Part shown: in pieces, positions 3,261 to 60,055 of the stretch
How positions within the stretch are numbered: the stretch's first letter is position 1
Layout: each line of letters starts with the position of its first letter
Assembly (NCBI GenBank): GCA_050084515.1
Contig: CM114271.1
Span: 14,508,001 to 14,572,000, forward strand
Source of the DNA: Blasia pusilla
Taxonomy: Eukaryota
Reading direction: 5' to 3'
Length of the DNA stretch: 64,000 bases
Made by a program: the position numbers and the translations under genes
The notes under the pieces: generated by a model
The model's database searches: none
What the model saw: only the letters and a program-made list of their open reading frames with translations
Told to the model about the DNA's origin: nothing

Positions 3261-3388
3261 ATTGGAGATATTTTGGTACTTCTTATCTCGTTGTTTGGAT
3301 GCCATGAGTTAGCATGGGATCGTGCGTGTTTGTGTGTGTGTTCAGTGACAGTGATGTATGTTGTGTAGCAATGTGTATGTGCACGACA
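3261..3388 (+). repeat. Repeat B1 of E1 (128 bp), copy of 3906-4033
   Basis: ATTGGAGAT...GCACGACA occurs at both positions. Follows the purine tract TAGGGGGG at 3251-3258. Confidence 0.95.
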
Positions 3389-3390
3389 GT

Positions 3391-4033
3391 TGTCACGTCC
3401 TTTAGGATAGATCGGTGAGATCTAGTAGAGTGTCTTCAAGAGTAGTGGAGAACAGGCCTAGGAGGTCGAGGATGACGTGCTGAGGCCCCGGGAAACCTGA
3501 GAGAGCAGGTTTTCCCTTCGTTTTGGCTCATTTGGAGCCATATTGAAGAACTTGCTATTTTAGGCAAGTACTATTTTGAGTATATGATCGACTTTCTATT
3601 TTTGGTTAGCGACCCTTGATCTCCTACATCAGGTCAAGAACCAAGGAGGTGACTTGGGAGAATAGGTTACCATGGAGAGAGCTTGGGAGAGGGGAGGGGT
3701 ATATATCCCAAGGAGAGAGAGCTTGAGAGCTCATTCTCTCTTTGTTGAACCTCTTGGCATGAGGCGGCGGAGCTATGGTCCCTTGCCTTGTGAGTGTAAC
3801 CCAAGCCTCTCATTAGGAGAGTGGGTTTGGTTTGACATGAGAGAGAGTGCACACCTTTGAGAGCTATGGTGTGAGATTGTGTAGAGAGAGATTAGATCTT
3901 ACTTTATTGGAGATCTTTTGGTACTTCTTGTCTCGTTGTTTGGATGCCATGAGTTAGCATGGGATCGTGCGTGTTTGTGTGTGTGTTCGGTGACAGCGAT
4001 GTATATTGTGTAGCGATGTGTATGCGCACGACA
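3391..4033 (+). repeat. Terminal repeat A2+B2 of E1 (TGTCACG...CACGACA)
   Basis: Near-identical to 21305-21948 and similar to 22931-23574. TG...CA ends; TATA-like TATATAT near 3700. Confidence 0.95.
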
Positions 4034-6400: not shown

Positions 6401-6737
6401 ACGGCCAAGAGAGGTGGAGACCTTAGTAGCATTTAGCGATGCCATCACTTGGCCTAGTGATTTGATTGAGGGACATGTCCATGCACAGGATACTCCCGTT
6501 CCTAACATTTCTATGGAGAGGAGTGTTATGGTAGCTGCATCATTCCGTGGAGGAGAGGTGCCGTTGTGGGGCTCAACTGAGGAGCTTTGACGATTGGCAG
6601 ATGAGCACGTGCAGACCGCGTGGAGCGAGGCATTTGCACGGAAGTATGACGGGTCAGAGGAACCCGAGGTAGCAGGGAGTGCAGCGATAACACCCTTGGA
6701 TACCACACCCATTGAATGGTGTATCCCGGAGCAGGGT

Positions 6738-7433
6738 ATTCGAGTATTAGATCTCTTTGTAGGGATTAGCACTAGATTAGCTGCTATTTTGTAGGAAGGA
6801 GTGCGAGTGCAGTAGTACCTGTATGTGGAGAGTGATAATGTTGCGAGGCGCATCTCACTACAACATATGGCGCAATTACGCCTAGGTTTTCCATACTAAT
6901 TATTTGCGTTCGCGGTACAGGGGTACCAGAGTTTCCTACTGAGAGATAGTTCGTTGTTGGGGGCGCAAGACTTAGAGCGGATAGGGAAAATTGATTTGGT
7001 CATTTCCGGTTGGCCATGTCAAGGCCAATCAAGTGTTGGACGAGGCAGCGGGTTGGCTGACACTCAATCCAGGTTATTTTGGGAGATGTTGAGGGTCTTA
7101 CAACAGTTGCAGGAGCACCAGTCTCGTTCTCCAACCTACATTCTCGAAAATGTGCCGATCTTAGGAGACTCTAGGTCACGGGTGGTGACGAGTGCTCATC
7201 AAGTGCGTGCCTGGATTGGCCCAACAATGTTCTTGGATGCGGCAGTGTAGGTTCTAGAGCCCATCGCCCGCGTCTATGGTGGACCAACTTGGTGCCCCAT
7301 GCGGTGCTAAAAAGGGCGTATGCAAGAGTGGAGCGCCCCTTCCATTTGTTAGTGGATTCCATTCTAGATCCAGGTTGTCGATCACAAGCCATGAGGCACG
7401 ATGATTGACCACCGATGACTATGGTCAACAGGG
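6738..7433 (+). pseudogene. DNMT3-like C5 cytosine methyltransferase domain of E2, N-terminal part (motifs I-VIII)
   Basis: IRVLDLFVGIST (motif I), IDLVISGWPCQG (IV), RLFWEMLRVL, YILENVP (VI), DAA..GSRAHRPRLWWTNL (VIII). Collinear with the DNMT3 catalytic domain. Confidence 0.88.
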
Positions 7434-7729
7434 TGTGGAAAACCGCTAAACAAGCATAACTGGTGGAAAACGGCTCTCACACACACACACACCACCATGG
7501 AGAACAAAATTTGTAATGAGAGAATGAATGGAGGCTGGTCCTCTTCTCAATTATATAGGATATGTATCCTTAACCATAGTCTCAAGTTAGTCTAACTGTG
7601 ATTAACTAACCCTAGTTAAAATAATCATTTTTAACTGACTAACCAAGATTAAGCTTCCCTATTTCGTATGAGTGCCAAATGTAGCAGTTCAGGTGTCTCA
7701 TAAGCTTGATTGTAATTCAATCTTCAATA
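7434..7729 (-). repeat. Copia 3' LTR
   Basis: Direct repeat of 19231-19540; adjacent PPT TTTGAGGGGAG on the minus strand. Confidence 0.93.
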
Positions 7730-7740
7730 CTCCCCTCAAA

Positions 7741-10700
7741 CTCATATCAATATCTTTAACGCCTAAATCCTTTCTAAACATCTCAAACTTATCTATAGAC
7801 AATGCCTTTGTAAAGATGTCATCAATTTTCTGATTTGTACTTATATACACAAAATCAATTTCTCTTGCAAGCACTTGCTCTCTAATAAAATGATAATGCA
7901 CCTCTACATGCTTTATACGAGGATGAAACACAAGGTTATTAGCAAGCTTGATGCTACTAATATTGTCTGCATATATTACACTAGGTCCTAAGTTACTAAC
8001 ACCAATCTCAACAAGTAATCGATGAAGCCACACCGCCTCACATGCTGCATTGGTTGCTCCTCTATACTCAGCCTCTGTTGAAGATAAAACAACTGTAGGT
8101 TGCTTCTTTGAAGCCCAACTTATAGCTGCGCTTCTCAAAGTAAATGAATAACCAGATGTGGAGTGTCGATCAGACACGCTTCCTGCCCAATCAGCATCTG
8201 TGAATCCCTATTATTGAAAACTCAAAGAAGGTTCAAATTAAAGCCCGAATTGAATAGAGAATTTCACATACCGCATAATCCTCCTCACAGCATCAAGGTG
8301 AGGTTTTTGAGGTGCTTGCATAAACTGGCTCACTAGGCCAACAGCATAGCTCAAATCTGGTCTGGTTATAATTAGATAGATCAAACTTCCAACCATACGC
8401 TTGTACATATTAGAATCTGCAAGCAGCTCTCCTTCATCCATTTTTTAGATTCACGCTCTGGTACAACGGTGTAGAGATTGGTTTACAAGCGGTCATACCA
8501 TATTTTGAAAGCATATAAAGAGCATATTATCGTTGTAGTAACCACATGCTCTCTCCAACCTTGATAAACTCAATACCAAGGAAGTACTTGAGTTCTCTCA
8601 AGTCCTTCATATCAAATTTTGCTTGTAACTTAAGCTTGATTTGTTGTACCATTTCTTCAGGACTCCCAGTAATCAAGAGATCGTCAACATACAACACAAT
8701 GAGAATTGTATGATCTTGTCCTCTCAAGACATATAACGAGGAGTAAGAATCACATACCCTAAAATCCAACTCTTGTAGGACGTATGTAATCTTGCCATAC
8801 CAAACTCTGGGAGCTTGTTTGAGCCCGTGTAGAGCTTTCTTCAACCTGCATACGCAAAATGGAAACTTGGGATGCTCATATCCAGGTGGTTGAATCATAT
8901 ATACCTCCTCGTATAGATCTCCATTCAAGAAGGTATTCTTGACGTCTATGTGATGTAATCTCCACTTCTTACTCACTACAACTACAACCACTGTTCTCAC
9001 AATCGCCATCTTTGCAACATGGCTAAATGTTTCCTCATAATCGATACCATATTGTTGTGCATATCCCTTAGCCACCAATCTTGCGTTGTATCTGTTAATT
9101 GTACCATCTTGATTGCGCTTGATTTTGTAAACTCATTTGCAACCAATAGCTTCCTTACCGAAAGGTATATCAACCAGCTCCCATGTTTGTTGATGTCTTA
9201 ATGCAGCAAGCTCTTCGTCCATAGCTTCAATCCATTCGGCTTTACTCACAACTTCTTCAAAATAACTCGGCTCCTGCTCTTGAAGGGTAGTCATCATATA
9301 TGCATGATGTGTCACAAGGAAACCGTCATTGATGAGTCTATGAACTGGATGTATAACTCTACTTGATCTACGAAGTTTTTGTTCAGAGGTAGATGCTTTT
9401 GACACCTGACTCGAGCTTTGACTAGTGTCAACAGACTGAATATGTACTCTTCCCGTCCGTGAACTCACAGATTTAATGGATGAATCTAGGACCTCTCCCA
9501 ATCCTCTACTAGTACTTGGGAAGTTGAAGACAATGTCTGTTGGTTTATAGTCATATTCTCCATCTCAATAGACAAGTTTAGAGATGAAATAAGCTCAGAT
9601 GGAGCATACCATGATGTTAGCTCATCAAAGACAACATCTCGACTAATAATAAGCTGCCTAGAGGATGGAATGTAGCACTTATATCCCTTAGTTCCATCAG
9701 CATAGCCAATGAAGATACATCTTTCAGACTTGGGGTCTAATTTCTAACGTCTCTGAGAAGGAACATGAGCATAACAGATATAGCCAAATACTTTCAAGAA
9801 TGAAAAATCATCTTTACTTCCTGTGAAGACTTCGAATGGAGTTTTATCATGAACTCCTGCTCTTGGAGTTCGATTGATTAAGAAGACTGCACATGCTACA
9901 GTCTCTGCCCAATAAACCTTAGGTATGTTCTTCTCATTCAGCATAGCTCGTGTCGCTTCAGGAATAGGTCGATTTTTCCTCTCAGCCACTCCATTTTGTT
10001 GTGGGGTGTAGCGGCAAGTCACTTGACGTTGGATGCCATTCTGACGTAAATAGTCATCAAACTCTGTTGAAAGATACTCTCCTCCTCCATCACAACGCAA
10101 TTTCAGAATGTGTTGTCCAATCTGCTTCTCTACTAGAACTCTGAATGTTTGGAACATTGAGAATACCTTTGAGTTGGCTTTCAAAAAGTATACCCATATA
10201 TACCTAGAGAAGTCATCCAAAATATGAAACAAAGTACTGGAAACCACTAAGGCTCTGTTGTGATGTTGTCCACACATCACTGTGGATCAACTCCAATATC
10301 TTGGATGCTCTTCTACCTTACTTTGGAAAAGGAAATGTAGCTTGTTTTCCAAATTGGCAAGCAGGACATACCTCTAACTTAGCAAGACTCGCTAATTTAG
10401 GGAGTCCTACTACTATATTAGATGATGAAAGACTCTGTAATCTTTGAAGATTCATATGTCCAATTCTTTTATGCCACACATTTAGATCTGTGACTTGTTG
10501 GCCGGTTTGACCATACATTGTTGTTTGAATCTCTGGCATAGAAACATCTAATTTGAACATTGTGCTAGATCTAGTTCCTTTGGCTATCGTAGTCTGGTCA
10601 TCCATTGTTTCAATGAAACAACCATCTGCGTTAAACTTCACTTGATAACCCTATTCTACTATCTATCCTACAGAGATCAGATTTCTTGCAATGGTAGGAA

Positions 10701-11100
10701 CATAGAGAACATTTCCAAGAGCACAAAGACCATCTTATGGTATTCGAACGTTATCGGTATGCCTGATATGATATAGAGTGTCATCTCCTATGAGCACAAT
10801 TGCAGGATCTTTCACCGGCTCCAAACTACTAAACCATTTCGCTTGTAAGGTCATGTGATTTGATGCACCAGAGTCAATGTACCAATCTGCTGTCGAGTCT
10901 TTCTTGACCATTGCTTCCATATGATGAGTCATGACCAAGAGATGCTCCGTTTGTGAATGTTGTTGTTCTTGGTACTACTCTTGGTGTTGTTGCTCCATAT
11001 AGTTTTGTTGCTGTAAGGCTCCTATTCTCATATCTGCCTTCTTCTTGAAGGAAAACTTTGCAAAGTGATCTTTTATCCCACAGTAATTGCAAGATCCAGG
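7741..11100 (-). pseudogene. pol: Copia pol remnant (knuckle, protease, GAG-pre-integrase, integrase, RT, RNase H)
   Basis: [68 protein letters not shown] in Copia order. Frameshifts and stops. Confidence 0.93.
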
Positions 11101-11103
11101 AAC

Positions 11104-11416
11104 CCTTATATAGGGCTGTAGTGTCTAGGTAGAGATGCAGTTCCATAGATAGGGTTGGGGATTACTCTGTTGAGGGTGACTTTTCTAGTAGGGCCCGCTC
11201 TTAGGTAGGAGGATATAGTATCCAGTGCACTCAAAGAACAGTTAGTTCTTTGAGTAGAGCGTGTTGCGTTGAGAATTAGCCTTGGTAGTGAGTTGAGCTC
11301 TTGGCTATGGTGATTCCCGCAAGCTTCGACCTGGATTCTCCCATTGTGGAGTGGGTTTGGCTCGATTGTATGTGATTGTATACCCGTTTAATGACAATAG
11401 GTCTTTCACGAATTTC
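11104..11416 (+). repeat. 5' repeat A1 of E3 (no B segment follows)
   Basis: Aligns with 17998-18310 and stops exactly where B2 starts in the 3' copy. Confidence 0.9.
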
Positions 11417-11428
11417 ACTCAAAGAACT
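11417..11428 (+). promoter_or_regulatory. Putative self-priming primer-binding site
   Basis: ACTCAAAGAACT is the exact reverse complement of AGTTCTTTGAGT (11244-11255), which lies about 30 nt after a TATA-like GATATAG. Confidence 0.65.
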
Positions 11429-11999
11429 GGAATAGATGGATGGTACCTTCGATCGTGGATTAGTAGGATCTGGTTAGGGTTGATTGTGTACTCAGTCATG
11501 GATATTCATGGCTTGTGGCCTATGTTGGAGATGTGAATCTGGTGCGTGGTTTGTTGGGAAAGAAGCGCCTTGCGGAGAGCTTTCTAACGCGCTTTAGATC
11601 GCCGAATTTCGTCAAGGGAGTTGGAAGTTATCAAGGATTGAAGATTCTTATTCGTGTTCGACAATTTTCTTATGTGGAGAGCTTGGAGTGCGGAAGATCT
11701 GTTGAAGTTCATCCAGATCGGGTGAGAGGTTCCTATTGCTACATGTATTTTAATCTCATGTGAAGCTATGTGCTTCACATGAGTGTGTGGAGCGTTGCGG
11801 ATTTCTGTGTGTATGAATCTGGGCGGAACCGCTGTCGGATTTGCGATTCTGGAGGTGTATGGACAGTAAGATTGTCTGATTTTTAGCTCAGAGTACGGAG
11901 CTCAATTGTAGCTGAATTTTTGTCAAGGAGAAATTTGTTGGACATATGGAGATGATCATGTCAGGAGGTTTTTTCCCCAAGAGGATGGGAGATGGACTT

Positions 12000-13560
12000 T
12001 GGAGGATGGGCCTCAATCAGCCCCAACTCAGTATGATCATTGTGGGAGACGAGGTCATCCTCGAGAGCGTTGCTTTGATCTTCATCCAGAGTTGAGATCA
12101 AGCCGCGGCCGTGGTGGAGTAGCTCCGAGAGGCCGAGGTGGTAGGGGTGGTAGAGGTGGACCAGCAGTTGGAGAGCCTATGGTGGCTACCCCTACCACTA
12201 CGACAGAGTCAGCTATGGTTGCCACGATTGAGCAGTTGTAGCAGAGGTTGGCTACTATGGCTGGAATCCAACATAGAGCAGGCTCAAGAGCAGGGGCTTC
12301 CACCTCTTATGGAGGGGATGATCTCTCTTATATGGAGAGTGCAATACAGGTTGAGGCATCAGCTGTAGTTACGAGAGGAGCCACTCGAGCGTCATAACCA
12401 TGTGGTGCTATTGTGGAGTTGGACCCACAGAGGGGTGAGGCTGGGAGGCAAGCTAGGCTCCCCAGTCATTCTTGTTGTCTGAGGTGCTGAGGACTCCATC
12501 CATGGTTCCTACGCAACCTATTGAGTCTACAGTGGGGATTGAGGCATCTACATTGCGTGTAGTAGACACGGATGCAGCATCGAGTGCAGTATTGCGGATG
12601 GCAACTTCAGTGTTGGGATCCCCATTGTTTTTAGCCACGGAGTTCATGGCTTTAGGAGTTGACTTAGCTCCTGTATTTTTGCTAGCAGCCACCTTGTGTG
12701 AACGTGGGAGTGTTACTGCTACACATGCTGGGGTGGATGAGGGTGTTGCGATGGAGCAACCCTCTATGTCAGGTGTAGCATTGAGTACCAGTGCTACTTG
12801 GCAGGCAGTAGCAACGAAGATGGATGCATTACCAGCCCGGCCAGGCATTGATCGTGAGAGGCTTACACTTGGTGTATGTATGTTGGACAACCGCAGTGGG
12901 ATATTCTGATTGGTGAGTCCTACAGTACAGGTGTATAGACCAAATAAAGTCTTGTTAGACTCTAGTACCCAACCTTTGAGGTTGGGAAAGGCAGCATGTA
13001 TTGGTTTGGGTATTCGGAGGTCAAAGCTTGAGCCTTGCCCATTCCAAATTCAAACATCACTTGGAGGAGCCAATGATAGGTCTCAATTCATGATACGGGA
13101 GAAGTTGTCTATACAGTTGGACCAGATCATGCGTCTGATAGCTCCCGGTTGGGAGTACCTGCAATAGTCACATCATCCGAGTCGTATGATGTACTAGTTG
13201 GAGGAGCACTATTGTACCCAATGGGTTTTCAGATAGACTACTGGACTGAGACAACGTCTTATAGACCTGGTTGGAAGTCCGAGGATGGACGTATGAGCCA
13301 GGTTCCTATGAGATTTATTTACGGGGCTCGACTAGGAGGATCTTCCCCAACGGTGTTAGCATCCGTGGCTGGTTTTAATGGAGTAGTCACTTGGCCAAGA
13401 GACTTTTTGGAGGATAACCTTTCTGCTATGGATTCTCCTGTGCATGAGGAGGTAGAGGAGGTCCCTAGTTTTGCAGCAGTGGCATCCTCATTGTTGGATG
13501 TGCCACTTTGGAGTTCAGGCGGTGCACTACGGCATGAGGCTGATCGCCTAGTGTAGGAGG
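12000..13560 (+). pseudogene. gag-pol: gag C-terminus (knuckle, RGG) and protease of E3
   Basis: YDHCGRRGHPRERC, RGRGGRGGRGG, KVLLDSSTQP (D at 12958-12960), YDVLVGG. Confidence 0.8.
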
Positions 13561-13682
13561 CTTGGTGTGATGTTGTTATACCTCACGAGGAAGAGGAGGC
13601 TCCACGACGGACTCCTACTTCTGGTCCAGTTGGGTTATCCCCTTTGGATACTACACCCATTGTATGGCAGTATCCGCTCGAG

Positions 13683-14320
13683 GGCATTTGTGTGTTAGAT
13701 CTCTTTGGTGGGATTAGCATTGGTTTGGCTGCAGTGTTGCAGGCCGGTATTCTTGTGCAGAGAAACGTGTATGTGGAGCGAGATGAGACAGCCCAGAGAG
13801 TCTCATCTTGACATATTGGTCAGTTGATGCGGAGATATCCTAAGTTGTTGCCGCCATCAGCTATTCGTGGGTACCAGCGTGCTTTGCCATCACATATTGT
13901 ATTGTTGGGGGCGCAGGATCTTGAGAGGGTTGGTCGTGTGGATTTGATGATTGCTGGATGGCCATATGCATGTCAGGATCATACACGTGTTGGTTGTGGT
14001 GAGGGATTACACAACCCTAGATCTCGATTGTTTTGGGAAACGTTACGGGTGTTACGACATCTTTAAGTTCATCAGGCACGTGCTCCAGTTTACATTCTGG
14101 AGAATATTCCATTGTTTGGTGGCACTCGGACCCGGATGATGGCGAGTGTTCATGAGGTGCGGTCTTAGATTGGACCAGCGGTGTTGTTGGATGCAGCGCA
14201 AGTTGGATCGCGTGTACATCGTGCGATGGGATTTGCTATTGGTGTGACATCGGTTGCTTCCATTTCTGAGGCTTCACGACGTCATGTGTTGGGTCAGGCC
14301 ATGGACCTGGATTTTGAATC
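13683..14320 (+). pseudogene. DNMT3-like methyltransferase domain of E3 (internal deletion near 14222)
   Basis: ICVLDLFGGISIGLAAVLQAGI, VDLMIAGWP(YA)CQD, RLFWETLRVL, YILENIP, DAAQVGSRVHR|AMGF...RRHVLGQAMDL. Confidence 0.86.
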
Positions 14321-14574
14321 TTGGTATGGCCGAGCAACGTTGACTTTGGACTATGTCTATGGGTCTTCCACCCCTTGTGATGAGCTCGATGCCTACCGGG
14401 ACGGTAGAGACATCAGCTCGGGGTGAGGAGAACAGTATTTTGCATCCTTGGAGTAAATGGGATGTAATGGCTGGGCATGTGGAGTTGGTTGCTCATGCAA
14501 GTGGAGGAGATATTTGCTCAGATGATGGTGTAGCTAAGGGTGTACCATCTTGTGAGGGGATTGCATAGCAGCCA

Positions 14575-17500
14575 ATGGTGTCGTCCTCTCCCTCTAGTGT
14601 GCCAGTGGAGGAGACTTGGGAGCCATTACTTGGGCCCAAGCTTACGGGAGGTGAGAAACAACGCTTGACACAGTTCATATATGCTTATAGGAGTTGTTTT
14701 GCCTTTAGCATGAAGGAGTTGGGTGCTTTGGTTGGACCCGATATACGGATTGATTTGGCTAGTAATATGCCAATCTTTTGTCGTCCCTACCAATATAGTG
14801 ATATGGAGAGGGACCTGATTCAGAGTAGGACGTTGGACCTTTTAGAGGTTGGATTAGTGGAGTTGTCGCATGGAGAGTATGCATCAGCCACTATCATGCG
14901 TGCTAAAAAGGATGTGCATGGCAACTACACAGATAGGCGGATGTGTGGAGATTACCGTCCTATCAATCGGCAGACCAAGGCCAATAGGTATGCCATGCCT
15001 ACACTTGAGGAGATCTTTGATGTGGTGGGACAGGCAAAGATTTTTAGTACTTTGGATCTCCGGGCAGGATACCATCAATTGCCGATTCAAGAGAGTGACA
15101 AGGCCAAGACAACATTTTGGGGTGTCAACTCTCATGGCAAGGATTGTTTGTACCAGTGGAAATTCTTACCCTTTGGGTTGAAGATCGCACTTGCCAAGTT
15201 TCAGAGAGTGATGGACATGATCCTAGCAGGGTTGGATTTTTTTCGGTGTTACATTGATGATATCTTGGTGTTCCGTAATACGGTGGAGGAGCATCAGATA
15301 CATTTGCAGATTGTGTTTGAGCGGTTGAAAGCTCATGGTCTACGTTGAGATTCAGGAAAGTGTAAGTTCTTCCATGAGGATGTTGAGTATTTGGGTCATG
15401 TGATCTATCCATGTGGTTTGGGAGTTCAGCAAGCAAAGGTGGAGGCTATTGCACTTATCCCTCGTCCGATAGATGTGAGTAGAGTTCGAGCATTCATGGG
15501 ATTGGCGAACTATTATCAGAGGTATGTGAAGGGATTTAGTGCTATGGAAAAGCCTTTGAACCAATTGCTGAAATCAAATCAGGAGTGGCACTGGGGAGAT
15601 GATCAGGAGAGAGCTTTTGTGCAGCTCAAGGCCCACTTGGTGGCGGCGCCTATCTTGAGGAGACCTATCAAAGGGCGTCCATTTCAGTTACACACTGATT
15701 GGAGTAGGTTGGGACTTGGAGCGGTGTTGACACAACATGATGATGAGCACATGGAGTTTGTGGTGGCCTATGCAAGTTGTTCGAATAATGCAATGAGTCG
15801 CTATAATTCATATGAGGGAGAGTGCTTGGCAAGAGTGTGGGTTGTGGCACACTTTAGGTGTTACTTGTTTGGCACACAATTTACCCTTGTTACTAATCAC
15901 CAGCCGCTCAAGTGGTTGATGGAGTCTGACAAGCTTACAGGGAAGCTTGCACGGTGGGCTCTTATCTTACAGGAGTATGACTTCCAGATGGTACATAGAC
16001 TTGGAGTTGCCAACCTTGATGCTGATGGGTTGAGTAGAAACCCATGTACTAGCCAAGAGGATGCAAGTGGGGCTAGATGACATGGCGAGGTTGATGAGGA
16101 GATGGTGTCAGGTTGGCATGCATCTGCCTTTTTATGTTGGTAAGGGGTGGACTCTAGTATGGAGGACCACATGACATCTTACTCTAGTCAGAGGGTAGAT
16201 GGCCAGCCTTCAGATCCTAAAGTTGGAGATGGTGGTACGGATCAGCCTGATATTCATGATGATGCGTTGGTGTTGGAGTTCCTACGGATCAGTAGGATGC
16301 CATGCATAGTGAGTGCCAAGGAGCGAGATCGTGTTCTTCAACGTGCTAAGAGGTATCGATTGGAGGGAATACATATTCTCCGTGTGTGGGAGGATGGTAG
16401 AGTACGAGTAGTGCCGCATTTGGCTGAGAGAGAGCGCATTGTGCGACATGCCCATGAGGAGTTGGGACAGTTTGGGGTAAAGCGTACTTATAGCTTACTC
16501 CTTGGTCAGTATTGGTGGCGCGGCATGCATACTCAGGTGCAGCAGTTGGTGTCACGTTGTATGGTTTGTGATTGGGTGAGGGCATCATTCAATGCCCCTA
16601 CACCATAGTTATACCCCTTGCCTATTATGGGGTTGGGTTACCGTTGGAGTGTGGACTTTGCGGGACCGTTACCGTTGATTGTACGACATCCTCGATATGT
16701 GTTGGTGATGGTGGAGCTCTTTTCCAAGTGGATTGAGTTGGTGGCATTACTTGACAAGGCAAGTGAGGGAACGGCATATGGGTTTCTTGATAGAGTGCTT
16801 AGTCATTTTGGTGCACCAGCTGAAGTGCTGACCGACCAGGAAACAGAGTTTCAGGGTGAGTTTCAGGTCTTGTGTGTCAAGGCGTTGATTGATCATCGGA
16901 CCACGTCTCGAGATCATCCAGAGACGGATGGTTTGGCTGAGCGTGTGGTTCAGACGGTGAAGAGGGCATTGCGCAAGTATGGCCTACAGAAGGGGCATCT
17001 TGGAGATTGGGATATTCAGTTGCCATGGTTAGCCATGGGGTATAGGTTTAGTCGCCAAGCATCCTTGGCTTCCTTCTCACCTTATTTTTTGTTATACAGC
17101 CGAGATCCAGACTTGCCAGTAGCAATTCGTCGGGAGTCTAGTAAGGTGGTGAACCTTGACGACTCCGGGGGCAGAGCTCTTTTGGAGAGTTATGCCAACA
17201 GACTTTGAGAATCTTGTCATTGCTCAACACAAGGATACGTTGCGGTATGCAACCATTCGGGGTGGAGGTTATCGACCATCGATTCGTAGATTCTATGTGG
17301 GGGACAATGTCTATTTGCAGCAAATTGCACCAACAACATTGGATGTGACGGCAGGCTGCACTATTTTACGAGTGCGCGAGGTGTTAGCTTCTGGAGTTCT
17401 CATAATGGAGGGTCGTGATGGAGTTGTTTGGAAGGACCATGTGCGTAATTGTGCATGTCATCTTCCAAATGTGGATGGTACTATTGACCCAAGCTTAGCC

Positions 17501-17661
17501 ATGATACGTGCTAGCTTGAGGTGCATGTTTTGTGGGTCTGCTAGTAACGCATCCCGTATGTTGGTGTGTGATCGGTGTTCTAGGGGTTGACACATTATGT
17601 GTTTGACTCCACGCATGGATGTTGTTCCTACTGGAAGGTGGGTTTTTCCTCCATGTACTTA
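14575..17661 (+). pseudogene. pol: RT, RNase H, integrase and PHD of E3
   Basis: RMCGDYRPIN, DLRAGYHQ, LPFGL, YIDD (Ty3/Gypsy RT); RNase H; HHCC + DDE; CMFC..CDRC..H..C. Confidence 0.93.
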
Positions 17662-17834
17662 GGAGGGGTAGATGACTTGATCTTTGCATGATATGGATTA
17701 CAGATGTGCGACTAACGATGGGGCAACCTGGCACCCGGCCTTTTGATTCGTGCACCCATGAAGGAGTATAGCATGTAGTAGATGTATAGGGCTACTTGGG
17801 AGTTAGAGGGACCTAACCGCCAGTTAGGGGAGCG

Positions 17835-18418
17835 AGTTGTGGTACACTTGTGTTTGTGGATGCTCTCGTCTATGTTATGTATGTATGTGAGTATGGTATG
17901 TCAGCGATGTATGTTGTATGACGATGTGGATTCGCACGACAACTGTCATGACCATACAAATTATGTCATAGAGTATAGTGTGCTAGTAGAGGCCATACCT
18001 TATGTGGGATCGTAGTGTCTAGGTAGAGATGTGGTTCCATACATAGGGTTGGGAGTTACTCCGTTGAGGGTGACTTTTCCAATAGGGCCCGTTCTTAGGT
18101 TGGAGGATATAGTGTGGAGTGCACTCAAAGAACAGTTAGTTCTTTGAGTTGAGCTTGTTGCGTTGGGAGTTAGCCTTGGTAGTGAGTAGAGCTCTTGGCT
18201 ATGATGGTTCCCGCAAGCTTCGACATGGATTCTCCCATCGTGGAAAGGGTTTGGCTCAATTGTATATGATTCTATACGTATTTTATGACATTAGGTCTTT
18301 CACATATTTCTAGTTGTGATACACTTGTGTTTGTGGATGTTCTTGTCTATGTTATGTATGTATGTGAGTATGGTATATGAGAGATGTATGTTGTATGACG
18401 ATGTGGATTCGCATGACA
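17835..18418 (+). repeat. E3 3' repeats: B1 (17835-17941), AC spacer, A2 (17944-18311), B2 (18312-18418)
   Basis: 107-bp B duplicated; junction CACGACA-AC-TGTCATG. Confidence 0.93.
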
Positions 18419-18714
18419 ATCTGGAACAGCTTTTCCAATGCATCCCAGGCACCCTTTGGAGTATCAACATCTTGGATGTGACCTATTATTGGCGAACTGA
18501 TCGTTATTGAAATGTAGTGGATTACTTGCCTTGCGCGTTTGTTCCAAGCGCGAACATTCAAATCTGTTGAGTCACCTTCTGGCTTGGCGTCATCACCTGT
18601 GACAAGCTCCCATAGTTCTTGACCCATGAGAAATTTTTTCATGCGAAACTTCCAGACATTGTAATTTTGCTTGTCTAGCTTCTCGCATGTGATTGTTGTT
18701 GAGGAATACTCCAT
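18419..18714 (-). pseudogene. gag: Copia gag N-terminus
   Basis: KLDKQNYNVWKFRMKKFLMGQELW...AWDALEKLF. Confidence 0.85.
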
Positions 18715-19230
18715 GATAAATGATTTCACTCACAAAAATATAATTTCAGGTTTTCTACTGCTCCAATTGAAGCATAGACCACTCCTACACAGAAATTGAC
18801 CTGAAATTTGCCAATATTGATCAACTCTATGAAAGAACTAGTCGAAATTGGCCTGTAGAGAGCAAACTGCACAACTTTTTTTCACTAATTGCACTTTCCT
18901 ACATTGAAATTGCTGTTGTAGGAGCTCAGAGTGTCAGAATTGAGCCATTTTGGATGCATTGGAAAGCTCTCGACAAGTTCTACGAGATTGTTGGGACCAG
19001 CCATACGCAACGGTCTAGAAAAAGTGGAACCTGACGGCTGAATCAACTGGGAAAGCCCTCAAAAACGTATCCAAAGTTTTATCACCATCAAAGATCCACT
19101 TGAAATCTGCACCCACTGAGCTCAGAGTAAAATTTCCTTCTCCCAAACTGAAATTGTGCCTTCTCTTGCCTCTCTTCTCTCTTCAAACACCAAGTATTTC
19201 AAGTGATGTTCTCCTCTCGCTCTGATACAA

Positions 19231-19540
19231 TGTGGAAAACTGCTAAATAAGCATAACTGGTGGAAAACGGATCTCACACACACACCACCATGGAGAACGA
19301 AATTTGCAATGAGAGAATGAATGGAGGTTGGTCCTCTTCTCAATTATATAGGGTATGTACAAGCAACCCTAACCCTATCCTTAACCATAGTCTCAAGTTA
19401 GCCTAATTGTGATTCACTAATCCTAGTTAAGATAATCGTGCTTAACAAACTAACCAAGATTAAGCTTCCCTACTTTGTGTTAGTGCCAAATGTAGCAGTT
19501 CAAGTGTCTCATGAGCTTGATTGTAACTCAATCTTCAAAA
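19231..19540 (-). repeat. Copia 5' LTR
   Basis: Direct repeat of 7434-7729, followed on the minus strand by a PBS. Confidence 0.93.
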
Positions 19541-19545
19541 CAGAG

Positions 19546-19790
19546 TAGGCAGGTCCCAAGCAGCCTCGTCCACGTTTGTGAGTTTTCTCGCTTCCTATGC
19601 ATACAAGGAGGTCGGTCCTGGCTTGGATTGGGATGACCAGGTGCAACGATTGGTGGAGCCCAACGCCGATGAGAGAGAGCGAGTGATGGGATTTCCCACA
19701 AAAGTGACGGCAGTACCGTTAGTGTCAGAGGCACCACAACGCCATGTCTTGGGTCAGGCGATGGACCTGAACTGCTTGATATGTACGAGC
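19546..19790 (+). pseudogene. DNMT3-like domain of E2, C-terminal part (motifs IX-X)
   Basis: EPNADERERVMGFPTKVT...SEAPQRHVLGQAMDLNCL, cf. DNMT3 EMERVFGFP..YT....SR..RQRLLGRSW. Confidence 0.85.
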
Positions 19791-19909
19791 AGCGCCATAT
19801 GAGATCGCGACAGATCACAGTGGTTGTATTGGTGAGCCCCATGCCTACCGAGACGGTGTAGGCAGTGGCTGGGGACGAGACCCGAGGAGATCTACACACC
19901 AGGGGAGAT

Positions 19910-22606
19910 CAACTTCTATCGGCGGTACGTCAAGGGATTCAACTCGATTGCGAAGCCTCTAACCTTGCTGACCAAGGTGGATCACGAGTGGCACTGGGGG
20001 GATGAGCAAGAGCGAGCATTTCAATTGCTCAAGGACAAGTTGACATCCGCACCCATCTTGAGGAGACCCATCAGGGGAGTATAGCTCGTATGAGGGTGAG
20101 TGTTTGGTTGCAATGTGGTCTGTCACGCATTTCAGGTGTTACTTATTGGGCAACCCTTTTACCATCATCATTGATCATCAACCACTAAAGTGGTTGATGG
20201 AGTCCGACAAGCTTACAGGGAAGCTTGTGAGATGGGTTCTATTCTTGTAGGAGTATGATTTTCAAGTGGTACATAGACCCGGGACGCTCAACCACGATGC
20301 AAATGGGTTGAGTCGTAACCCATGCCCGAGTCAGCGAGATGCGACTAGAGCTCGATCGCATGGAGAGAGTGATGAGGAGTCAGTGCCAAGATGGCACGCG
20401 TCAGCCTGTTTAGGCATGTTGCCTATGGAGAGTCATAGTGTGGAGACTTCGATGGCGAGGTCTAGTGGAGAGTCCTTGGATCCCAAGGCCAGTGAGGAGA
20501 CAACATATGGCGGAGATCTTCATGATGATGGAGTAGTCTTGGAGTACCTTCGTACTGGCAGTGTTGCGTGCACCGTGGGTACTAGAGAGCAGGATCGGAT
20601 CCTACAGCGGGTCAGACGGTTCCGTTGGGAGGGGACACATGTTTTGAGGGTTTGGGAGGATGGTAGAGTACGCATAGTGCCACATCCTTTGTAGAGAGCA
20701 CGACTAGTGCAGCATGCCCACGAGGAGTTAGGTCACTTTGGGATGAAGCGGACGTACAACTTGCTCTATATTCAGTATTGGTGGCGAGGCATGTAGACTG
20801 ACATTCAACAGTTTTTTTCCAGGTGCATGGTGTGTGATCGGGTCCGAGCATCGTTCAATGCTCCGACTCCACAGTTGCATCCATTATCGATCATGGGCTT
20901 AGGGTATAGATAGAGTTTGGATTTTGCAAAACCTTTGCCTTTGACGGAGCGTCACAATCGTTATGTGTTGGTGATGGTCGAGCACTTCTCGAAGTGGATC
21001 GAGTTGGTTGTATTTCCTGATAAAGCGATTCAAGGGAGTAGCTTATACCTTCCTTGACAGAGTGCTGAGTCATTATGGCGCACCGGCTGAGGTGTTGACA
21101 GACCAGGATACCGAGTTTCGCGATGAGTTCCAGGTGTTGTGTGATCAAGCGCTGATCGACCACCGCACGACTTCACGAGATCATCCAGAGGCGGATGGAT
21201 TAGCGGAGAGAGTTGTGCAGACGGTGAAGAGGGGTTTACCTAAGTATGGCTTGCAGAGAGGTCACCTAGAAGATTGGGACCTCCAGTAGCCGTGGTTGGG
21301 GATGTGTCACGTCCTTTAGGATAGATCGGTGAGATCTAGTAGAGTGTCTTCAAGAGTAGTGGAGGACACGCCTAGGAGTTCAAGGATGACCTGCTGAGGC
21401 CCCGAGAAACCTGAGAGAGCATGTTTCCCCTTCGTTTCGGCTCATTTGGAGCCATATTGAAGAACTTGCTATTTTAGGTAAGTGCCATTTTGAGTATATG
21501 ATCGACTTTCTATTTTTGGTAAGTAGCCCTTGACCTCCTACATCAGGTCAAGAGCCAAGGAGGTGACTTGGAAGAATAGGTTACCATGGAGAGAGCTTGG
21601 GAGAGGGGAGGGGTATATATCCCAAGGAGAGAGAGTTTGAGAGCTCATTCTCTCTTTGTTGAACCTCTTGGCATGAGGCGGCGGAGCTATGGTCCCTTGC
21701 CTTGTGAGTGTAATCCAAGCCTCTCATTAGGAGAGTGGGTTTGGTTTGACATGAGAGAGAGTGCACACCTTTGAGAGTTATGGTGTGAGATTGTGTAGAG
21801 AGAGATTGGATTTTACTTTAATTGGAAATATTTTGGTACTTCCTGTCTCGTTGTTTGGATGCCATGAGTTAGCATGGGATCGTGCATGTTTGTGTGTGTG
21901 TTCGGTGATAGCGATGTATGTTGTGTAGCGATGTGTATGCGCACGACAGATGGGATACACATTCAGCAAGCAAGCATCCTAAGCGTCTTTTTCACCGTAC
22001 TTGCTACTTTATGGCTGAGAGCCAGATTTACCTGCGGCCATTTGTCGAGATGTTGGTGAGGTGTTGGACCTTGATGACCCAGATGTATGGATGCGAGCAT
22101 GTTCTCAGAGGGCTGAGTTATTTTGGAGAGTGATGCCCATGGTGTTCGAGAACTTGGGGATTGCGCAGCATCGAGATACGTTGAGGTATGCGACTATTCG
22201 AGGTGGTGGTTATCGACCAACTCTCTGGAGGTTTCATCAGGGAGATTATGTCTACTTTCAGCAGACGGCACCGACGATGTTGGATGTGATTGCAGGGCGC
22301 ACTATCCTGATAGTGCGCGACGTTTTGCCATCCAATATTCTCTTGCTCGAGGGACGCGATGGTATGGTACGGAAGGACCATGTGCGTAATTGTGCGCCAT
22401 GTCACCTTCCTAGCATTGATGGTACAGTAGATCCGAGCTTAGCAGTAGTTCCTGCAGGCTTGCGTTGTATGTTGTGTGGTTCTGCCTGTGGTGCGGCCAA
22501 AATGCTAGTATGTGATGGATGTTCGAGAGGTTGGCATATGGTATGTCAGACGCCACCTCTCACTAGGGTTCCTCGAGGACAATGGATGTATCCCAGATGT
22601 ACGTAG
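19910..22606 (+). pseudogene. pol: RNase H/integrase/PHD remnant of E2 (RT deleted near 19905)
   Basis: Closely similar to 895-3074; interrupted at 21305-21948. Confidence 0.9.
21305..21948 (+). mobile_element. Solo A+B repeat with 4-bp TSD
   Basis: GATG|TGTCACG...CACGACA|GATG. The uninterrupted site in E1 has a single GATG. Confidence 0.93.
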
Positions 22607-22792
22607 GGGAGATACTAGGTAGGTTTCAATTCTGACTTTTTCTGTGACATGGATGACAAGAAGGCGACTAACGATGGGGCCACATGAGCACCCGGCCTTT
22701 CTACTCTTAGCGTCCTAGAGATGTATGTCGTGGTAGGTAGGGATAGAGGGCTATCTGGAGTTAGAGGGACCTAACCAACAACTAAGGGGGCG

Positions 22793-23574
22793 ATTGGAGA
22801 TATTTTAGTACTTCTTGTCTCATTGTTTGGATGCCATGAGTTAGCAGGGGATCATGCGTGTTTGTGTGTGTGTTCAGTGACAGCGATGTATGTTGTGTAG
22901 CAATGTGTATGTGCACGACAGAACGACAACTATCACGTCTTTTGGGATAGATCGGTGAGATCTAATAGAGCGCCTTCGTGAGTAGTGGGGGACATGCTCA
23001 GTAGGTGGAGGATAACTTGCTAAGGCCCCGAGAAACTTGAGAGAGTAGGTTTCCCTTCGTTTCGGTTCATTTGGAGCGATATTGAGGAATTTACTATTTT
23101 AGGTACATACCATTTTGAGTTTATCATCAACTTTTTATTTTTGTTAAGTGCCCCTTGACCTCCTACATCAGGTCTAGAGCCAAGGAGATAACTTGGGAGA
23201 ATAGGTTACCATGGAGAGAGCTTGGGAGAGGTGAGGGGTATACCTCAAGGAGAGAGAGCTTCAGAGCTCATTCTCTCTTTGTTGAACCTCTTGGCATGAG
23301 GCGGCGGACCTATGATCTTGCTTGCTTTGTGTGTGTAACCCAAGCCTCTCCTTAGGAGATTGGGTTTGGTTTGATATTGAGAGAGACATGTGAGAGTGCA
23401 CACATTTGAGAGCTATGGTGTTGAGAGAGATTGGATCTTGATTTATTGGAGATATTTTGGTACTTCTTATCTCGTTGTTTGGATGCCATGAATTAACTTG
23501 GGATCGTGTGTGTTTGTGTGTGTGTGTTCGGTGACAGCAATGTATGTTGTATAGCGATGTGTATGCGCACGACA
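22793..23574 (+). repeat. E2 3' repeats: B1 (22793-22920), spacer, A2+B2 (22931-23574)
   Basis: B duplicated at 23445-23574. Junction CACGACA-gaACGACA-AC-TATCACG carries a small duplication. Confidence 0.92.
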
Positions 23575-57655: not shown

Positions 57656-60055
57656 TGGATTCAAAACTGCTCCGAGTATGAGGCTGCTTGCGTAGGATGT
57701 AGTTAGATTTGGGAATTTTTAAGATTATTCAAACCATTCTAAAGTCGTGCGTCGTTAATGGGGGTGAGGTATTTGGAAATATATTGATCTTATTGATAGG
57801 TATAAGCCATGCAGTGTCGATTGTGTTACCAATATGGATACCTGTAGTCCGTGAGAGAGATTGGATTGTGTGTAGAAAGAGATGGAAAATTTATTGGAAC
57901 AATGTGAATGCTGATTTGTTGTGTAATATGCAATGGTAATTTGTATTAAAATATTGTGAAAATCAGTAGGGAGAATAGGTGTCGGAAGCCCTTATTAGTA
58001 TATTTGGAAATCAATAAGAGGTAAAGTGTATTTGGAATGCAAAATGTATTGGATGATTGGTTGAAGAGCTAGATGGAAATTATTGACTGCAGAAAAACAT
58101 GTAGATAATAATGAGATAGAGATGTATCTTGTGGAAAAGGGTGAGAGGGCTTGAGGCCTCTATTGCCAAAATTAGATGAATCTAAGAACAAAGTAGAAAT
58201 TGCTCTCAAGTCTTAGCATACTTAGTCTCATATATTGCTATCTATGGGGTCACTTGCATAGCGGTGACTGAACTATATTAGCTTGGAGCATGAGCTTTGC
58301 ATCACCACTAATAAGAGGCTGGATGTGAGGAAGGAAATCCTTGAAATATTCACTTCCATCCTTGAGCTTTTGAGTAATAAGAGATATGTATGAAGTATTC
58401 ATGTCAATCTTCTTGTAGAGGGAGGAGAGAAGATCATCATGCACATCAAACTTAATATGAAATTTAGCCAACTCCTCCTGTGTAGTTGTAAGCTCAAATA
58501 GTGTATCTTGGAAGAGTCGAAGAGGAACTGAATTTTGAGGATGGCGAGTCGAAGAAGATGCCAAGGATTGCTGATGAGAATCCTGCAATAGGAAAAATCA
58601 ATGTGGATGTAAGAAAGAAGAGACTGGCATAGCAACATATGAATGTTGTAAGAATTCGGTCCATAATGTGTTACATAGTAAGCAAGGAAGTACGAGATGT
58701 ATCAGAGGTCTCAAGTATGGTTGGTTAAGAAGTGAAGTATATAAAAGAGATATCGCGTAAACCAATGTAATTATACATCTAAGTAGGCGGAGAGAAAATC
58801 AGTGGCATGTGGCGTGAAATTGTTGAAGCAGAAACAATAGAAGATACATATGGAAGCGACGTTGAGGAAAAAAATAGTCCAAGGAGAATAGAAAGGTTGA
58901 AGTAAGAAAGTTAGGTACAAAGAGCTAGTTATATGGTTGAAGATTATACGCACTTGCATTTTGTTGGCGATGTCACAAGAGTGGAAGATTCAAATGCATT
59001 GCGATCTCAGTGTCGTGCAAATACACATCGTTTCCAACATACATCAGCTCTCATGCACACACATGTCTAAGATCCATCTACCTATCAATCATAACATATC
59101 TACACATGAACGACCAGACAACCCCAATATAAAATTGAATATGCACTATAAACTTAGATGAAATCTGCAATCAACCGTGCTTCATCCAAACAACCATATA
59201 CATTAATCAAATACACACTGGTGTAATAGCAAGAGAAAGTGTACACAAGGACTCCCAAAATATGTGTGATCTTTCTTATTAATTGCTCCTAGCCCATTCT
59301 TCAAGAGAGAATCCAAGCTCGATACATGCAAGCCGTACTGTATCACGGATCCCAACAAGGGTCTGCAATCCTAAGGAGATGAGTTCCAAATGAGCTTCAT
59401 CCAAGATATACCCCCCTGGGCACCTCCATGGATGACTTGTACATACAGGTCACCTCCCTCCAAGCAGGTCACTACCCACCTATAGTACACCCATACTAGC
59501 TCCCTAACAACTACATATGTGGTCCCCTCATGAGACCAACTACCAACTAACCCGTGACCCTATAGGTCCAAGTGGAGCCATACATGGTTGGGAAGCTCAA
59601 CCTCTCCAAGGTTGTCACTCCTCATAAAGGGAAGGGTGATCTACACTCATAGATCACCTCCTAAGAGCAGGTCACATATTACCTCTCGGAATAGGGAAGT
59701 ACAAGACCCTTCTAAGGCCTCGATACTATCGCGCCCTACGCCTCATCTACCATGACAGACGTTGTGCGAATACACATCGCTACCAACATACATCATTTGT
59801 CATGCACACATATGTCTAAGATCCATCTAGCTATGAATCCTAACATCTCTACACGTGAACGATTGGACAATCCCAATCGTCCCCCTAGTTGGTGGTTAGG
59901 TCCCTCTAACTCCAAATAGCCTACAAAACAAGTCTAAATCTTATGCATCTTTTTGATGCTAAGATCACGAGGTCAAGTGCTATGTCGCCCCATCGTTAGT
60001 CACCTTCTTGCAATCCATAACATCGAGAGTCATCTTGTAATCCACCTATGCCATC

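What the first reader, a model, noticed from the sequence alone, without database searches (positions are those of the whole stretch)
11104..18418. DDE-integrase retrotransposon with split direct repeats (A-ORFs-B-A-B) and an internal att junction: candidate circle-based integration
Seen: all four 3' ends in the window (3261-4033, 17835-18418, 22793-23574, 59011-59877 on minus) have a purine tract, a 107-130 bp segment B ending in CACGACA or a variant, a 2-nt spacer (extended by a small duplication in E2), then a TG-type start of A followed by a second B. The one alignable 5' end (11104-11416) has A only. Established: A-ORF-B-A-B is the layout of tyrosine-recombinase PAT/Ngaro elements; Ty3/Gypsy elements normally have two equal LTRs with the PPT abutting TG. 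IS3-family DDE enzymes open circles at abutted CA/TG ends. Inference: the unit bounded by PPT and PBS is B+A, so cDNA would be BA-ORF-BA. Circularising it and cutting at the first internal CA-NN-TG gives exactly A-ORF-B-A-B. I do not know of this being described for a DDE element but cannot exclude it.
Basis: partly seen in the sequence, partly recalled or inferred. Interest (0 to 1): 0.93.

Follow-up and report, generated by a model that had tools for sequence, protein, structure and literature searches.

The report
Gypsy retrotransposon with permuted, split repeats
This is a decayed plant (liverwort-type) Ty3/gypsy retrotransposon whose end repeats are split (A-genes-B-A-B), so the ends its integrase joins to the host are not the ends its reverse transcriptase should make, which points to an unusual, still untested integration route.

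Summary
All four 3' ends in the window read purine tract-B-2 nt-A-B, and the one 5' end has A followed by no B. The layout is general. In 80 related metagenome loci (63 distinct groups), 0 of 16 distinct 5' ends have B beside A, 14 3' ends are B-A-B, and 8 of 11 complete copies carry perfect 4-bp target duplications outside A1 and B2.

The pol gene is Ty3/gypsy, with a DDE integrase plus PHD finger and DNA-methyltransferase remnants. No tyrosine recombinase was found.

The purine tract abuts B. A Tf1-like self-priming site abuts the end of A, and it co-varies between two lineages. The reverse-transcription repeat is therefore B-NN-A. The integration ends (TG...CA) form a palindrome inside it, and A2|B2 equals a circle junction.

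The architecture was noted before, in one figure legend for Klebsormidium Gypsy-Dnmt3 (PMC5890265). The E2 copy itself is old, broken and 5'-truncated.

The parts
11104..11416 (+). A1 of copy E2. It is the 5' repeat, truncated (lacks the first 53-54 nt of A), and no B follows it.
   Evidence: 87.5% identical to 17998-18310; sequence.
11212..11219 (+). TATA-like motif (GATATAGT) about 30 nt upstream of the proposed RNA start.
   Evidence: motif read by eye. Relatives carry GGTATAAAAGG at the same place.
11244..11255 (+). Anti-primer-site AGTTCTTTGAGT inside A, the proposed 5' end of the RNA. It is perfectly complementary to 11417-11428.
   Evidence: 12 nt, reached by 0 of 300 shuffles.
11417..11428 (+). 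Primer binding site (self-priming type), ACTCAAAGAACT, directly after the end of A1.
   Evidence: The same position and complement occur in 10 of 17 5' ends.
11429..17816 (+). Internal region, with many stops and frameshifts: gag-like ORFs; protease/DNMT-like remnant about 13125-14234; RT 14569-15348; RNase H 15349-16080; integrase zinc domain 16144-16608; rve core 16609-17208; decayed C-terminus to about 17632.
17817..17834 (+). Purine tract region (...CCAGTTAGGGGAGCG) abutting B1.
   Evidence: conserved in 18 of 18 3' ends printed.
17835..17941 (+). B1, ending in CACGACA.
17942..17943 (+). 2-nt spacer (AC) at the centre of the palindrome CACGACA-AC-TGTCATG.
17944..18310 (+). A2, the full-length A, starting TGTCATGACC.
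18312..18418 (+). B2, ending in CATGACA at the element's 3' boundary. It is followed by copia gag sequence.
3261..4033 (+). 3' end of copy E1: B1 3261-3388, spacer GT, A2 3391-3905, B2 3906-4033.
21305..21948 (+). Solo A+B repeat inside the integrase gene of copy E3. The 4-bp target duplication GATG lies at 21301-21304 and 21949-21952.
   Evidence: sequence; contigs of X1, X2 and X16 skip 21300->21949 with 4 shared letters.
22793..23574 (+). 3' end of copy E3: B1, a junction carrying a short duplication, A2, B2.
59011..59877 (-). 3' end of copy E4: B1, 2 nt, A2, B2.
7434..19541 (-). Host Ty1/copia element (repeats about 7434-7730 and 19231-19541) into whose gag E2 inserted. It in turn splits another gypsy copy (about 4085-7433 and 19542-23574).

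Best explanation
E2 is an old, inactive copy of a streptophyte Ty3/gypsy lineage. Its pol carries protease, a DNA-methyltransferase remnant, RT, RNase H and a DDE integrase; relatives and copy E1 end pol with a PHD finger. The integrated form of this lineage is regularly A-PBS-genes-PPT-B-NN-A-B, flanked by a 4-bp target duplication.

Shown:
- The integration ends are the TG start of A and the CA end of B.
- The purine tract abuts B.
- A self-priming primer site abuts the end of A. Its complement lies mid-A, about 30 nt downstream of a TATA-like motif.

It follows that the repeat reverse transcription should build is B-NN-A (U3 = B + NN + first half of A; R/U5 = second half of A). The A2|B2 joint is exactly U5-end joined to U3-start. 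B-NN-A holds a palindrome, CACGACA-NN-TGTCATG, that looks like a circle junction.

Inferred:
- The cDNA is BA-genes-BA.
- Its two ends are joined, either as a two-repeat circle or after cutting.
- The DDE integrase cuts both strands at the CA-NN-TG palindrome of the repeat next to the primer site and inserts those ends. This gives A-genes-B-A-B.

A1 then supplies the promoter and the RNA start, B1-NN-A2 supplies U3-R for the next round, and B2 supplies the integrase end.
For: Architecture:
- 4 of 4 3' ends in the window are B-2nt-A-B.
- In 80 related loci (63 groups), 0 of 16 distinct 5' ends have B beside A, and 14 groups have B-A-B at the 3' end.
- 8 of 11 complete copies have perfect 4-bp target duplications, and the other 3 match at 3 of 4 nt.
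- A solo A+B repeat has a GATG duplication, and the empty site is seen in three runs.

Concerted repeats: A1/A2 are 87-92% and B1/B2 92-94% identical within a copy, although the families are not alignable to each other.

PPT abuts B in 18 of 18 printed 3' ends.

Self-priming:
- 10 of 17 5' ends have a perfect complement of at least 10 nt between the bases right after A and one site mid-A, reached by at most 4 of 300 shuffles.
- The two lineages use different sequences (ACTCAAAGAACT versus TCTAGAAAAACT), so the pairing co-varies.
- A TATA-like motif lies about 30 nt upstream of the complement.
- The minimum-energy folds pair the proposed 5' end with the primer site, z -2.9 and -4.2.

A2|B2 is A-end plus B-start with 0-1 extra nt in most copies. 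A 17-nt duplication at the end of A in L054 is present in both A1 and A2.

Integrase: rve and H2C2 domains, with D, D and E (35 apart) invariant in 15 aligned relatives.

Precedent: foamy-virus integrase cleaves the palindromic junction of 2-LTR circles to give linear DNA (PMC1180852, abstract read).
Against: - No cDNA, circle, RNA end or enzyme activity was observed. Every step after 'PPT abuts B, PBS abuts A' is inference.
- A two-repeat circle has two identical CA-NN-TG junctions, and cutting the other one gives A-B-NN-A-genes-B. 0 of 16 5' ends show that form, so a strong unexplained bias is required.
- 14 of 33 3' end groups in the metagenome loci have B only. Four of these lie on contigs that also hold the 5' end, making complete A-genes-B copies; 3 of those 4 have perfect target duplications. 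They could be one-repeat-circle products, later B1/B2 deletions or assembly collapses. I could not tell which.
- 7 of 17 5' ends show no complement above chance, which I take to be decay.
- The relatives come from metagenome contigs, whose repeats can be mis-assembled.
- The RNA start and the poly(A) site are not mapped.
Confidence: 0.5

Rival explanations
1. Reverse transcription alone builds a linear A-genes-B-NN-A-B cDNA with TG...CA ends. This would need extra priming or template switches, for instance an RNA that runs through A2 into B2, plus-strand priming at the B/A junction, and end-to-end switching. The integrase then inserts this linear DNA in the ordinary way, with no circle.
For: It would explain why only one orientation of the permutation is seen (0 of 16 mirror forms) and why A2|B2 joints are mostly precise. 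One contig of a run guessed to be RNA spans A2 into B2 (17969-18376), so transcripts may include the joint.
Against: I could not find a series of standard steps that copies B after A. The conserved purine tract abuts B1, not A2. The primer site abuts A1, and nothing conserved follows B2, which is host flank. The end of B is not purine-rich. The RNA label of that run is a guess.
Confidence: 0.25
2. It is an ordinary gypsy element whose true repeat is A+B at both ends. B is missing at the 5' end of E2 only by deletion, and B1 is a sporadic extra copy.
For: A+B has TG...CA ends and exists as a solo repeat with a target duplication. E2's 5' end is damaged. At 3391-4033 an A+B repeat is followed directly by internal sequence.
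Against: 0 of 16 distinct 5' ends in relatives, and E2 as well, have B after A. B1 is present at every 3' end examined. B1 and B2 evolve in concert within copies. Other copies diverge from this locus upstream of 4085 (loose end in 9 X2 contigs), so that neighbour is a truncated copy.
Confidence: 0.02
3. The split repeats reflect DIRS/PAT-type mobilisation by a tyrosine recombinase supplied in trans or lost from these copies. The DDE integrase would be irrelevant.
For: A1-B1-A2-B2 repeats are the hallmark of PAT, Toc, Ngaro and Viper elements (PMC4157794, passages read).
Against: No recombinase domain appears in any ORF or relative tested. TG...CA ends with 4-bp target duplications are the signature of a DDE integrase. 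The integrase catalytic residues are invariant across relatives.
Confidence: 0.03

Closest known systems
KnitGypsy-Dnmt3 of Klebsormidium nitens (de Mendoza et al. 2018, PMC5890265)
   Same: A Gypsy pol with a DNMT inside it. The Fig. 4c legend says its repeats have the structure of a DIRS element. Relatives here carry DNMT, E2 and E4 keep remnants, and K. nitens proteins are among the hits at 37-43% identity.
   Different: Whether the window's elements fall in the same clade was not tested by a tree. The hosts here are liverwort-like.
PAT/Toc/Ngaro tyrosine-recombinase retrotransposons (split direct repeats A1-B1-A2-B2)
   Same: The same order of repeats, A-genes-B-A-B (PMC4157794).
   Different: Those encode a tyrosine recombinase. 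These encode a DDE integrase, end in TG...CA and make 4-bp target duplications. That TOC1 has this layout is recalled only; its paper was not held.
Tf1/sushi and Tcn1 self-priming Ty3/gypsy elements
   Same: The predicted RNA 5' end is complementary to the primer site right after U5. Self-priming is known for Tf1/sushi and predicted for plant Tcn1 (PMC6317226, passages read).
   Different: Those have two equal repeats and a chromodomain. These have split repeats and a PHD finger.
Integrase cleavage of retroviral 2-LTR circle junctions (foamy virus, HIV-1 in vitro)
   Same: A palindromic CA..TG junction is cut by a retroviral-type integrase to give processed ends (PMC1180852, abstract; PMC1905944, search listing only).
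   Different: In retroviruses the junction forms only on circularisation and the provirus has equal LTRs. Here the palindrome sits inside every reverse-transcribed repeat and the integrated copy is permuted.
IS3/IS911-type circle intermediates with abutted ends
   Same: A DDE enzyme would act on abutted ends separated by a few bases.
   Different: Those are bacterial DNA transposons with no reverse transcription. The resemblance is of logic only.

Membership tests
Ty3/gypsy (Metaviridae) LTR retrotransposon | Pol order protease-RT-RNase H-integrase, with gypsy-type RT/RNase H domains | tested here: met
   RVT_1, RT_RNaseH, RT_RNaseH_2, Integrase_H2C2 and rve, in that order and in one frame; relatives.
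Ty3/gypsy (Metaviridae) LTR retrotransposon | DDE (D,D35E) integrase | tested here: met
   D696, D756 and E791 (P0001 numbering) are invariant in 15 sequences; rve, E = 1e-12.
Ty3/gypsy (Metaviridae) LTR retrotransposon | TG...CA ends and a short target-site duplication | tested here: met
   4 bp, perfect in 8 of 11 complete relatives and at the solo repeat. E2 itself has none because its 5' end is deleted.
Ty3/gypsy (Metaviridae) LTR retrotransposon | Two equal long terminal repeats, with the PPT abutting the 3' repeat's TG and the PBS abutting the 5' repeat's CA | tested here: not met
   the 5' end is A only, the PPT abuts B1, and the PBS abuts the end of A.
PAT/Ngaro/DIRS tyrosine-recombinase retrotransposons | Split direct repeats A1-B1-A2-B2 | tested here: met
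PAT/Ngaro/DIRS tyrosine-recombinase retrotransposons | An encoded tyrosine recombinase | tested here: not met
   No such Pfam hit. Caveat: the copies are decayed and only ORFs of at least 80-100 aa were scanned.
Tf1/sushi-type self-priming elements | The first bases of the RNA are complementary to the PBS | tested here: inconclusive
   The complement, its co-variation, the TATA spacing and the folds support it. The RNA 5' end itself was not mapped.
Tf1/sushi-type self-priming elements | A chromodomain after the integrase | tested here: not met
   A PHD finger is found instead.
Streptophyte Gypsy-DNMT3 elements (KnitGypsy-Dnmt3) | A C5 DNA methyltransferase domain inside Pol | tested here: met
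   PF00145 in L037, L062, P0017 and P0024; remnants at 13125-14234 (E2) and 63795-62027 (E4).
Streptophyte Gypsy-DNMT3 elements (KnitGypsy-Dnmt3) | Same clade as the Klebsormidium family by RT/IN phylogeny | not tested
   No reference sequence of that family was at hand. K. nitens hits of 37-43% identity are only suggestive.

The most novel reading that the evidence does not exclude
A whole, ancient clade of DDE-integrase retrotransposons, from charophyte algae to liverworts and mosses, integrates obligatorily through a joined-ends (2-LTR-circle-type) intermediate. The integrase site is a palindromic CA-NN-TG junction built into every reverse-transcribed repeat, so the provirus is a circular permutation of the cDNA. 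If so, circle junctions can be on-pathway substrates for retroviral-type integrases in nature, and split direct repeats arose convergently with two unrelated integration enzymes.
Probability: 0.4. Interest if true: 0.85.

Novelty: new variant of a known kind. Interest (0 to 1): 0.72.

Why it matters
Textbook LTR retrotransposons and retroviruses integrate a linear cDNA whose ends are set by the primer site and the purine tract. Two-LTR circles are usually called dead ends.

Here those two landmarks and the integration ends disagree, consistently, across lineages that share only about 45% pol identity. The standard scheme therefore cannot produce the observed provirus. The clade gives a natural system in which to ask three questions: whether a retroviral-type integrase uses an internal or circle junction, why only one permutation is made, and why the same split-repeat layout evolved in tyrosine-recombinase elements.

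There is also a practical consequence. LTR finders that demand two equal repeats will mis-annotate these abundant bryophyte and charophyte elements.

The copy in the window is itself dead and has no importance for the host.

Tried and rejected
- No whole genome is held for the window, so no genome-wide census was possible.
- Sequencing runs: no RNA holder is listed. One run, X16, is only guessed to be RNA.
- Read laying laid very many contigs, but the tables were cut. The joints at E2's 5' end were not shown, so it added only three things: the empty site of the solo repeat, one B-AT-A junction contig, and a loose end at 4085.
- I first read the A+B repeat at 3391-4033, followed by TGGTCC..., as a complete 5' repeat plus a tRNA-type primer site, and took the family to be canonical with an extra B. 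I dropped this.
- A tRNA-type primer site (TGG...) was not found after A.
- I searched for a tyrosine recombinase and found none.
- L015 and L016 looked like one locus assembled twice, with and without A2-B2. Their flanks differ, so they are two insertions and give no evidence of assembly collapse.
- The E1/E3 family has no close relative among the 80 loci, so its 5' end remains unseen.
- The papers on REM1 and TOC1 were not held. What I say of them is recalled.
- Searches for a printed description of a DDE element with split repeats found only PMC5890265. The library lacks most subscription journals and the supplements were closed, so an earlier description cannot be excluded.
Full report
WHAT IS THERE

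The window is transposon-rich eukaryotic DNA, and no genome is held for it.

Between 11104 and 18418 on the plus strand lies a decayed element, here called E2. Its single long frame carries RVT_1, RT_RNaseH/RT_RNaseH_2, Integrase_H2C2 and rve. The frame is broken by stops: TGA, TGA, TAA and TAG inside 14569-17208, with a TGA at its end.

Its closest proteins come from liverworts (Calypogeia, Riccia, Marchantia; 67-80% identity) and, further away, from Closterium and Klebsormidium. Most of them add a PHD finger after the integrase, and several carry a C5 DNA methyltransferase. E2 keeps a methyltransferase-like remnant at 13125-14234. Copy E1 keeps the PHD finger at the end of pol. The D, D and E of the integrase core are invariant in 15 aligned relatives.

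THE REPEATS

In E2, A (11104-11416) recurs at 17998-18310 at 87.5% identity, and B (17835-17942) recurs at 18312-18419 at 93.5%. The three other 3' ends in the window, whose pol is only about 70% identical to E2, each have their own B pair.

Aligned, all four read as follows:
- a conserved purine tract;
- B, ending in CACGACA or a variant;
- 2 nt;
- A, starting TGTCA(C/T)G;
- B again.

Read base by base, E2 is B1 17835-17941, AC, A2 17944-18310, one base, B2 18312-18418. The start of A and the end of B are inverted repeats of each other, so A+B has the TG...CA look of a classical LTR.

A solo A+B (21305-21948) sits inside the integrase gene of copy E3, between two copies of GATG. Contigs from three runs skip exactly this stretch with four shared letters. 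A-start and B-end are therefore the ends that get inserted, with a 4-bp target duplication.

E2 lies in the gag of a minus-strand copia element whose repeats are at about 7434-7730 and 19231-19541. On the 3' side, the gag domain stops at profile position 74 of 172, exactly at B2. On the 5' side, the zinc knuckle abuts A1. At least about 300 bp of copia, and the first 53-54 nt of A1, are therefore gone. E2's 5' end is not intact and has no target duplication.

The short junction duplication is in the 22793-23574 copy, not in E2.

The A+B repeat at 3391-4033 is followed directly by internal sequence of another copy. That copy continues beyond the copia insertion as E3. At first I took this for a complete 5' repeat. 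Other copies diverge from this locus upstream of 4085, and every other 5' end contradicts that reading (see below). I therefore read it as a truncated neighbour next to E1.

IS THE LAYOUT GENERAL?

A scan of metagenome contigs with an alignment of relatives gave 80 loci, which form 63 groups after merging near-identical ones. They represent two lineages, at about 75-80% and about 40-46% pol identity to E2.

- **5' ends.** Twenty loci (16 groups) hold a 5' A upstream of pol. In none of the 16 is a B found within 400 nt after A or 100 nt before it.
- **3' ends.** 14 groups are B-A-B, 3 are B-A, 14 have B only with at least 600 nt of contig beyond, and 2 are unclear.
- **Target duplications in complete copies.** Perfect 4-bp duplications lie outside A1 and B2 in L037, L062, L054, L059 and L056. 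L014 and L043 match at 3 of 4 nt.
- **Complete A-genes-B copies.** There are four: L003, L023 and L050 have perfect duplications and L040 matches at 3 of 4 nt.
- **Concerted repeats.** Within a copy, A1/A2 are 87-92% and B1/B2 92-94% identical, although the families cannot be aligned with each other. Both pairs are therefore renewed at each transposition.

WHERE REVERSE TRANSCRIPTION STARTS

The G-rich purine tract abuts the first base of B1 in 18 of 18 3' ends printed.

Right after the last base of A1 comes ACTCAAAGAACT in E2 and its lineage, and TCTAGAAAAACT in the other lineage. No TGG-type tRNA site is present. In 10 of 17 distinct 5' ends these bases have a perfect complement of 10-17 nt at one fixed place in the middle of A. 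At most 4 of 300 shuffles reach that length. The other 7 show nothing above chance.

The two lineages differ in sequence but keep the pairing. A TATA-like motif (GGTATAAAAGG in one lineage, GATATAGT in E2; read by eye) lies about 30 nt upstream of the complement. RNA folded from that point to just past A pairs its first 15-17 bases with the site after A, with z-scores of -2.9 and -4.2.

This is the self-priming arrangement known from Tf1/sushi and predicted for plant Tcn1 (PMC6317226, passages).

The consequences, from the standard scheme of LTR reverse transcription, are:
- U3 = B + NN + the first half of A;
- R/U5 = the second half of A;
- the repeat built on the cDNA is B-NN-A;
- the expected linear cDNA is BA-genes-BA.

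The A2|B2 joint equals the last base of U5 followed by the first base of U3, with 0-1 extra base in most copies. A 17-nt duplication at the end of A in L054 is present in both A1 and A2, as expected if both are copied from one U5.

HOW IT MOST LIKELY WORKS

The integrated copy is a circular permutation of the expected cDNA. Some joining of the end of A to the start of B, and cutting at CA-NN-TG, seems forced.

The ends are joined, as a two-repeat circle or after cutting, and the DDE integrase cleaves both strands at the palindrome of the repeat next to the primer site, then inserts those ends. Foamy-virus integrase does cut the palindromic junction of 2-LTR circles (PMC1180852, abstract).

A one-repeat circle cut the same way would give A-genes-B, a form that is common in the loci. 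However, later deletion or mis-assembly could produce that form as well.

The weak point is asymmetry. The two junctions of a two-repeat circle are identical, and cutting the other one would give A-B-NN-A-genes-B, which I saw in 0 of 16 5' ends. Either there is a strong bias, or reverse transcription itself makes the permuted linear DNA by steps I could not reconstruct (the rival explanation, 0.25).

None of the intermediates was observed here.

COMPARISON AND NOVELTY

Split direct repeats define PAT, Toc, Ngaro and Viper elements, which use a tyrosine recombinase (PMC4157794). No such domain was found here, and the ends and duplications are those of a DDE integrase.

The layout is not wholly new in print. 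The Fig. 4c legend of de Mendoza et al. [quoted passage not shown] In the passages I read, no boundaries, primer sites or mechanism are given, and the supplements were closed.

Four searches found no other description. The library is incomplete, and the REM1 and TOC1 papers were not held.

VERDICT

- The reading 'PPT/PBS unit = B+A' is now supported by independent evidence.
- The circle-and-cut step is plausible, has a retroviral precedent, and remains untested.
- E2 itself is a dead, truncated copy.

Noticed in passing
window 1-23574: Nested transposons. Gypsy copy E1 ends at 4033. A 5'-truncated gypsy copy (about 4085-7433) is split by a minus-strand copia element (7434-19541) and resumes at about 19542-23574 (E3). 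The copia gag holds E2, and the E3 integrase holds a solo A+B repeat.
   Followed up: partly
window 13125-14234 and 62027-63795 (minus); L037 5627-6097; L062 8583-9146: C5 DNA-methyltransferase domain remnants lie between protease and RT. Copy E1 (2337-3074) and database relatives have a PHD finger at the end of pol. The lineage therefore looks like the streptophyte Gypsy-DNMT3 group.
   Followed up: partly
L003, L004, L010, L016, L017, L023, L033, L040, L044, L048, L049, L050, L076, L077: In fourteen groups the 3' end has B only (PPT-B-flank). Four of these lie on contigs that also hold the 5' end, forming complete A-genes-B copies; 3 of those 4 have perfect 4-bp target duplications. They could be one-repeat-circle products, B1/B2 deletions or assembly collapse. 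Which of these is undecided.
   Followed up: partly
E2, L014, L037, L043, L062 (repeat pairs): Within each of five copies, B1/B2 are less diverged than A1/A2. Summing the figures gives about 47 differences in 697 nt against about 158 in 1560 nt. Possible causes are gene conversion between the close B copies or a different decay rate. Not tested.
   Followed up: no
window 2001-24000 and 42001-64000: The gypsy copies show strong strand asymmetry: the sense strand is G+T-rich, with GC skew of about +0.2 to +0.27. B itself is very GT-rich, which might serve as a downstream element for RNA 3' end formation after A2. That idea is speculation.
   Followed up: no
L054 1889-1925 and 10895-10925: A 17-nt duplication at the end of A is present in both A1 and A2 of one copy, and it pushes the primer site downstream.
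   Followed up: partly
window 11228-11256: Inside A of E2, the anti-primer sequence also forms a perfect hairpin with an upstream copy of the primer-site sequence (CACTCAAAGAAC, loop AGTTA, GTTCTTTGAGT). I did not check systematically whether relatives share this.
   Followed up: no
window 24000-58000: The rest of the window holds many further ORFs of at least 120 aa on both strands and an AT-rich stretch at 24001-26000 with GC 0.32. Not examined.
   Followed up: no
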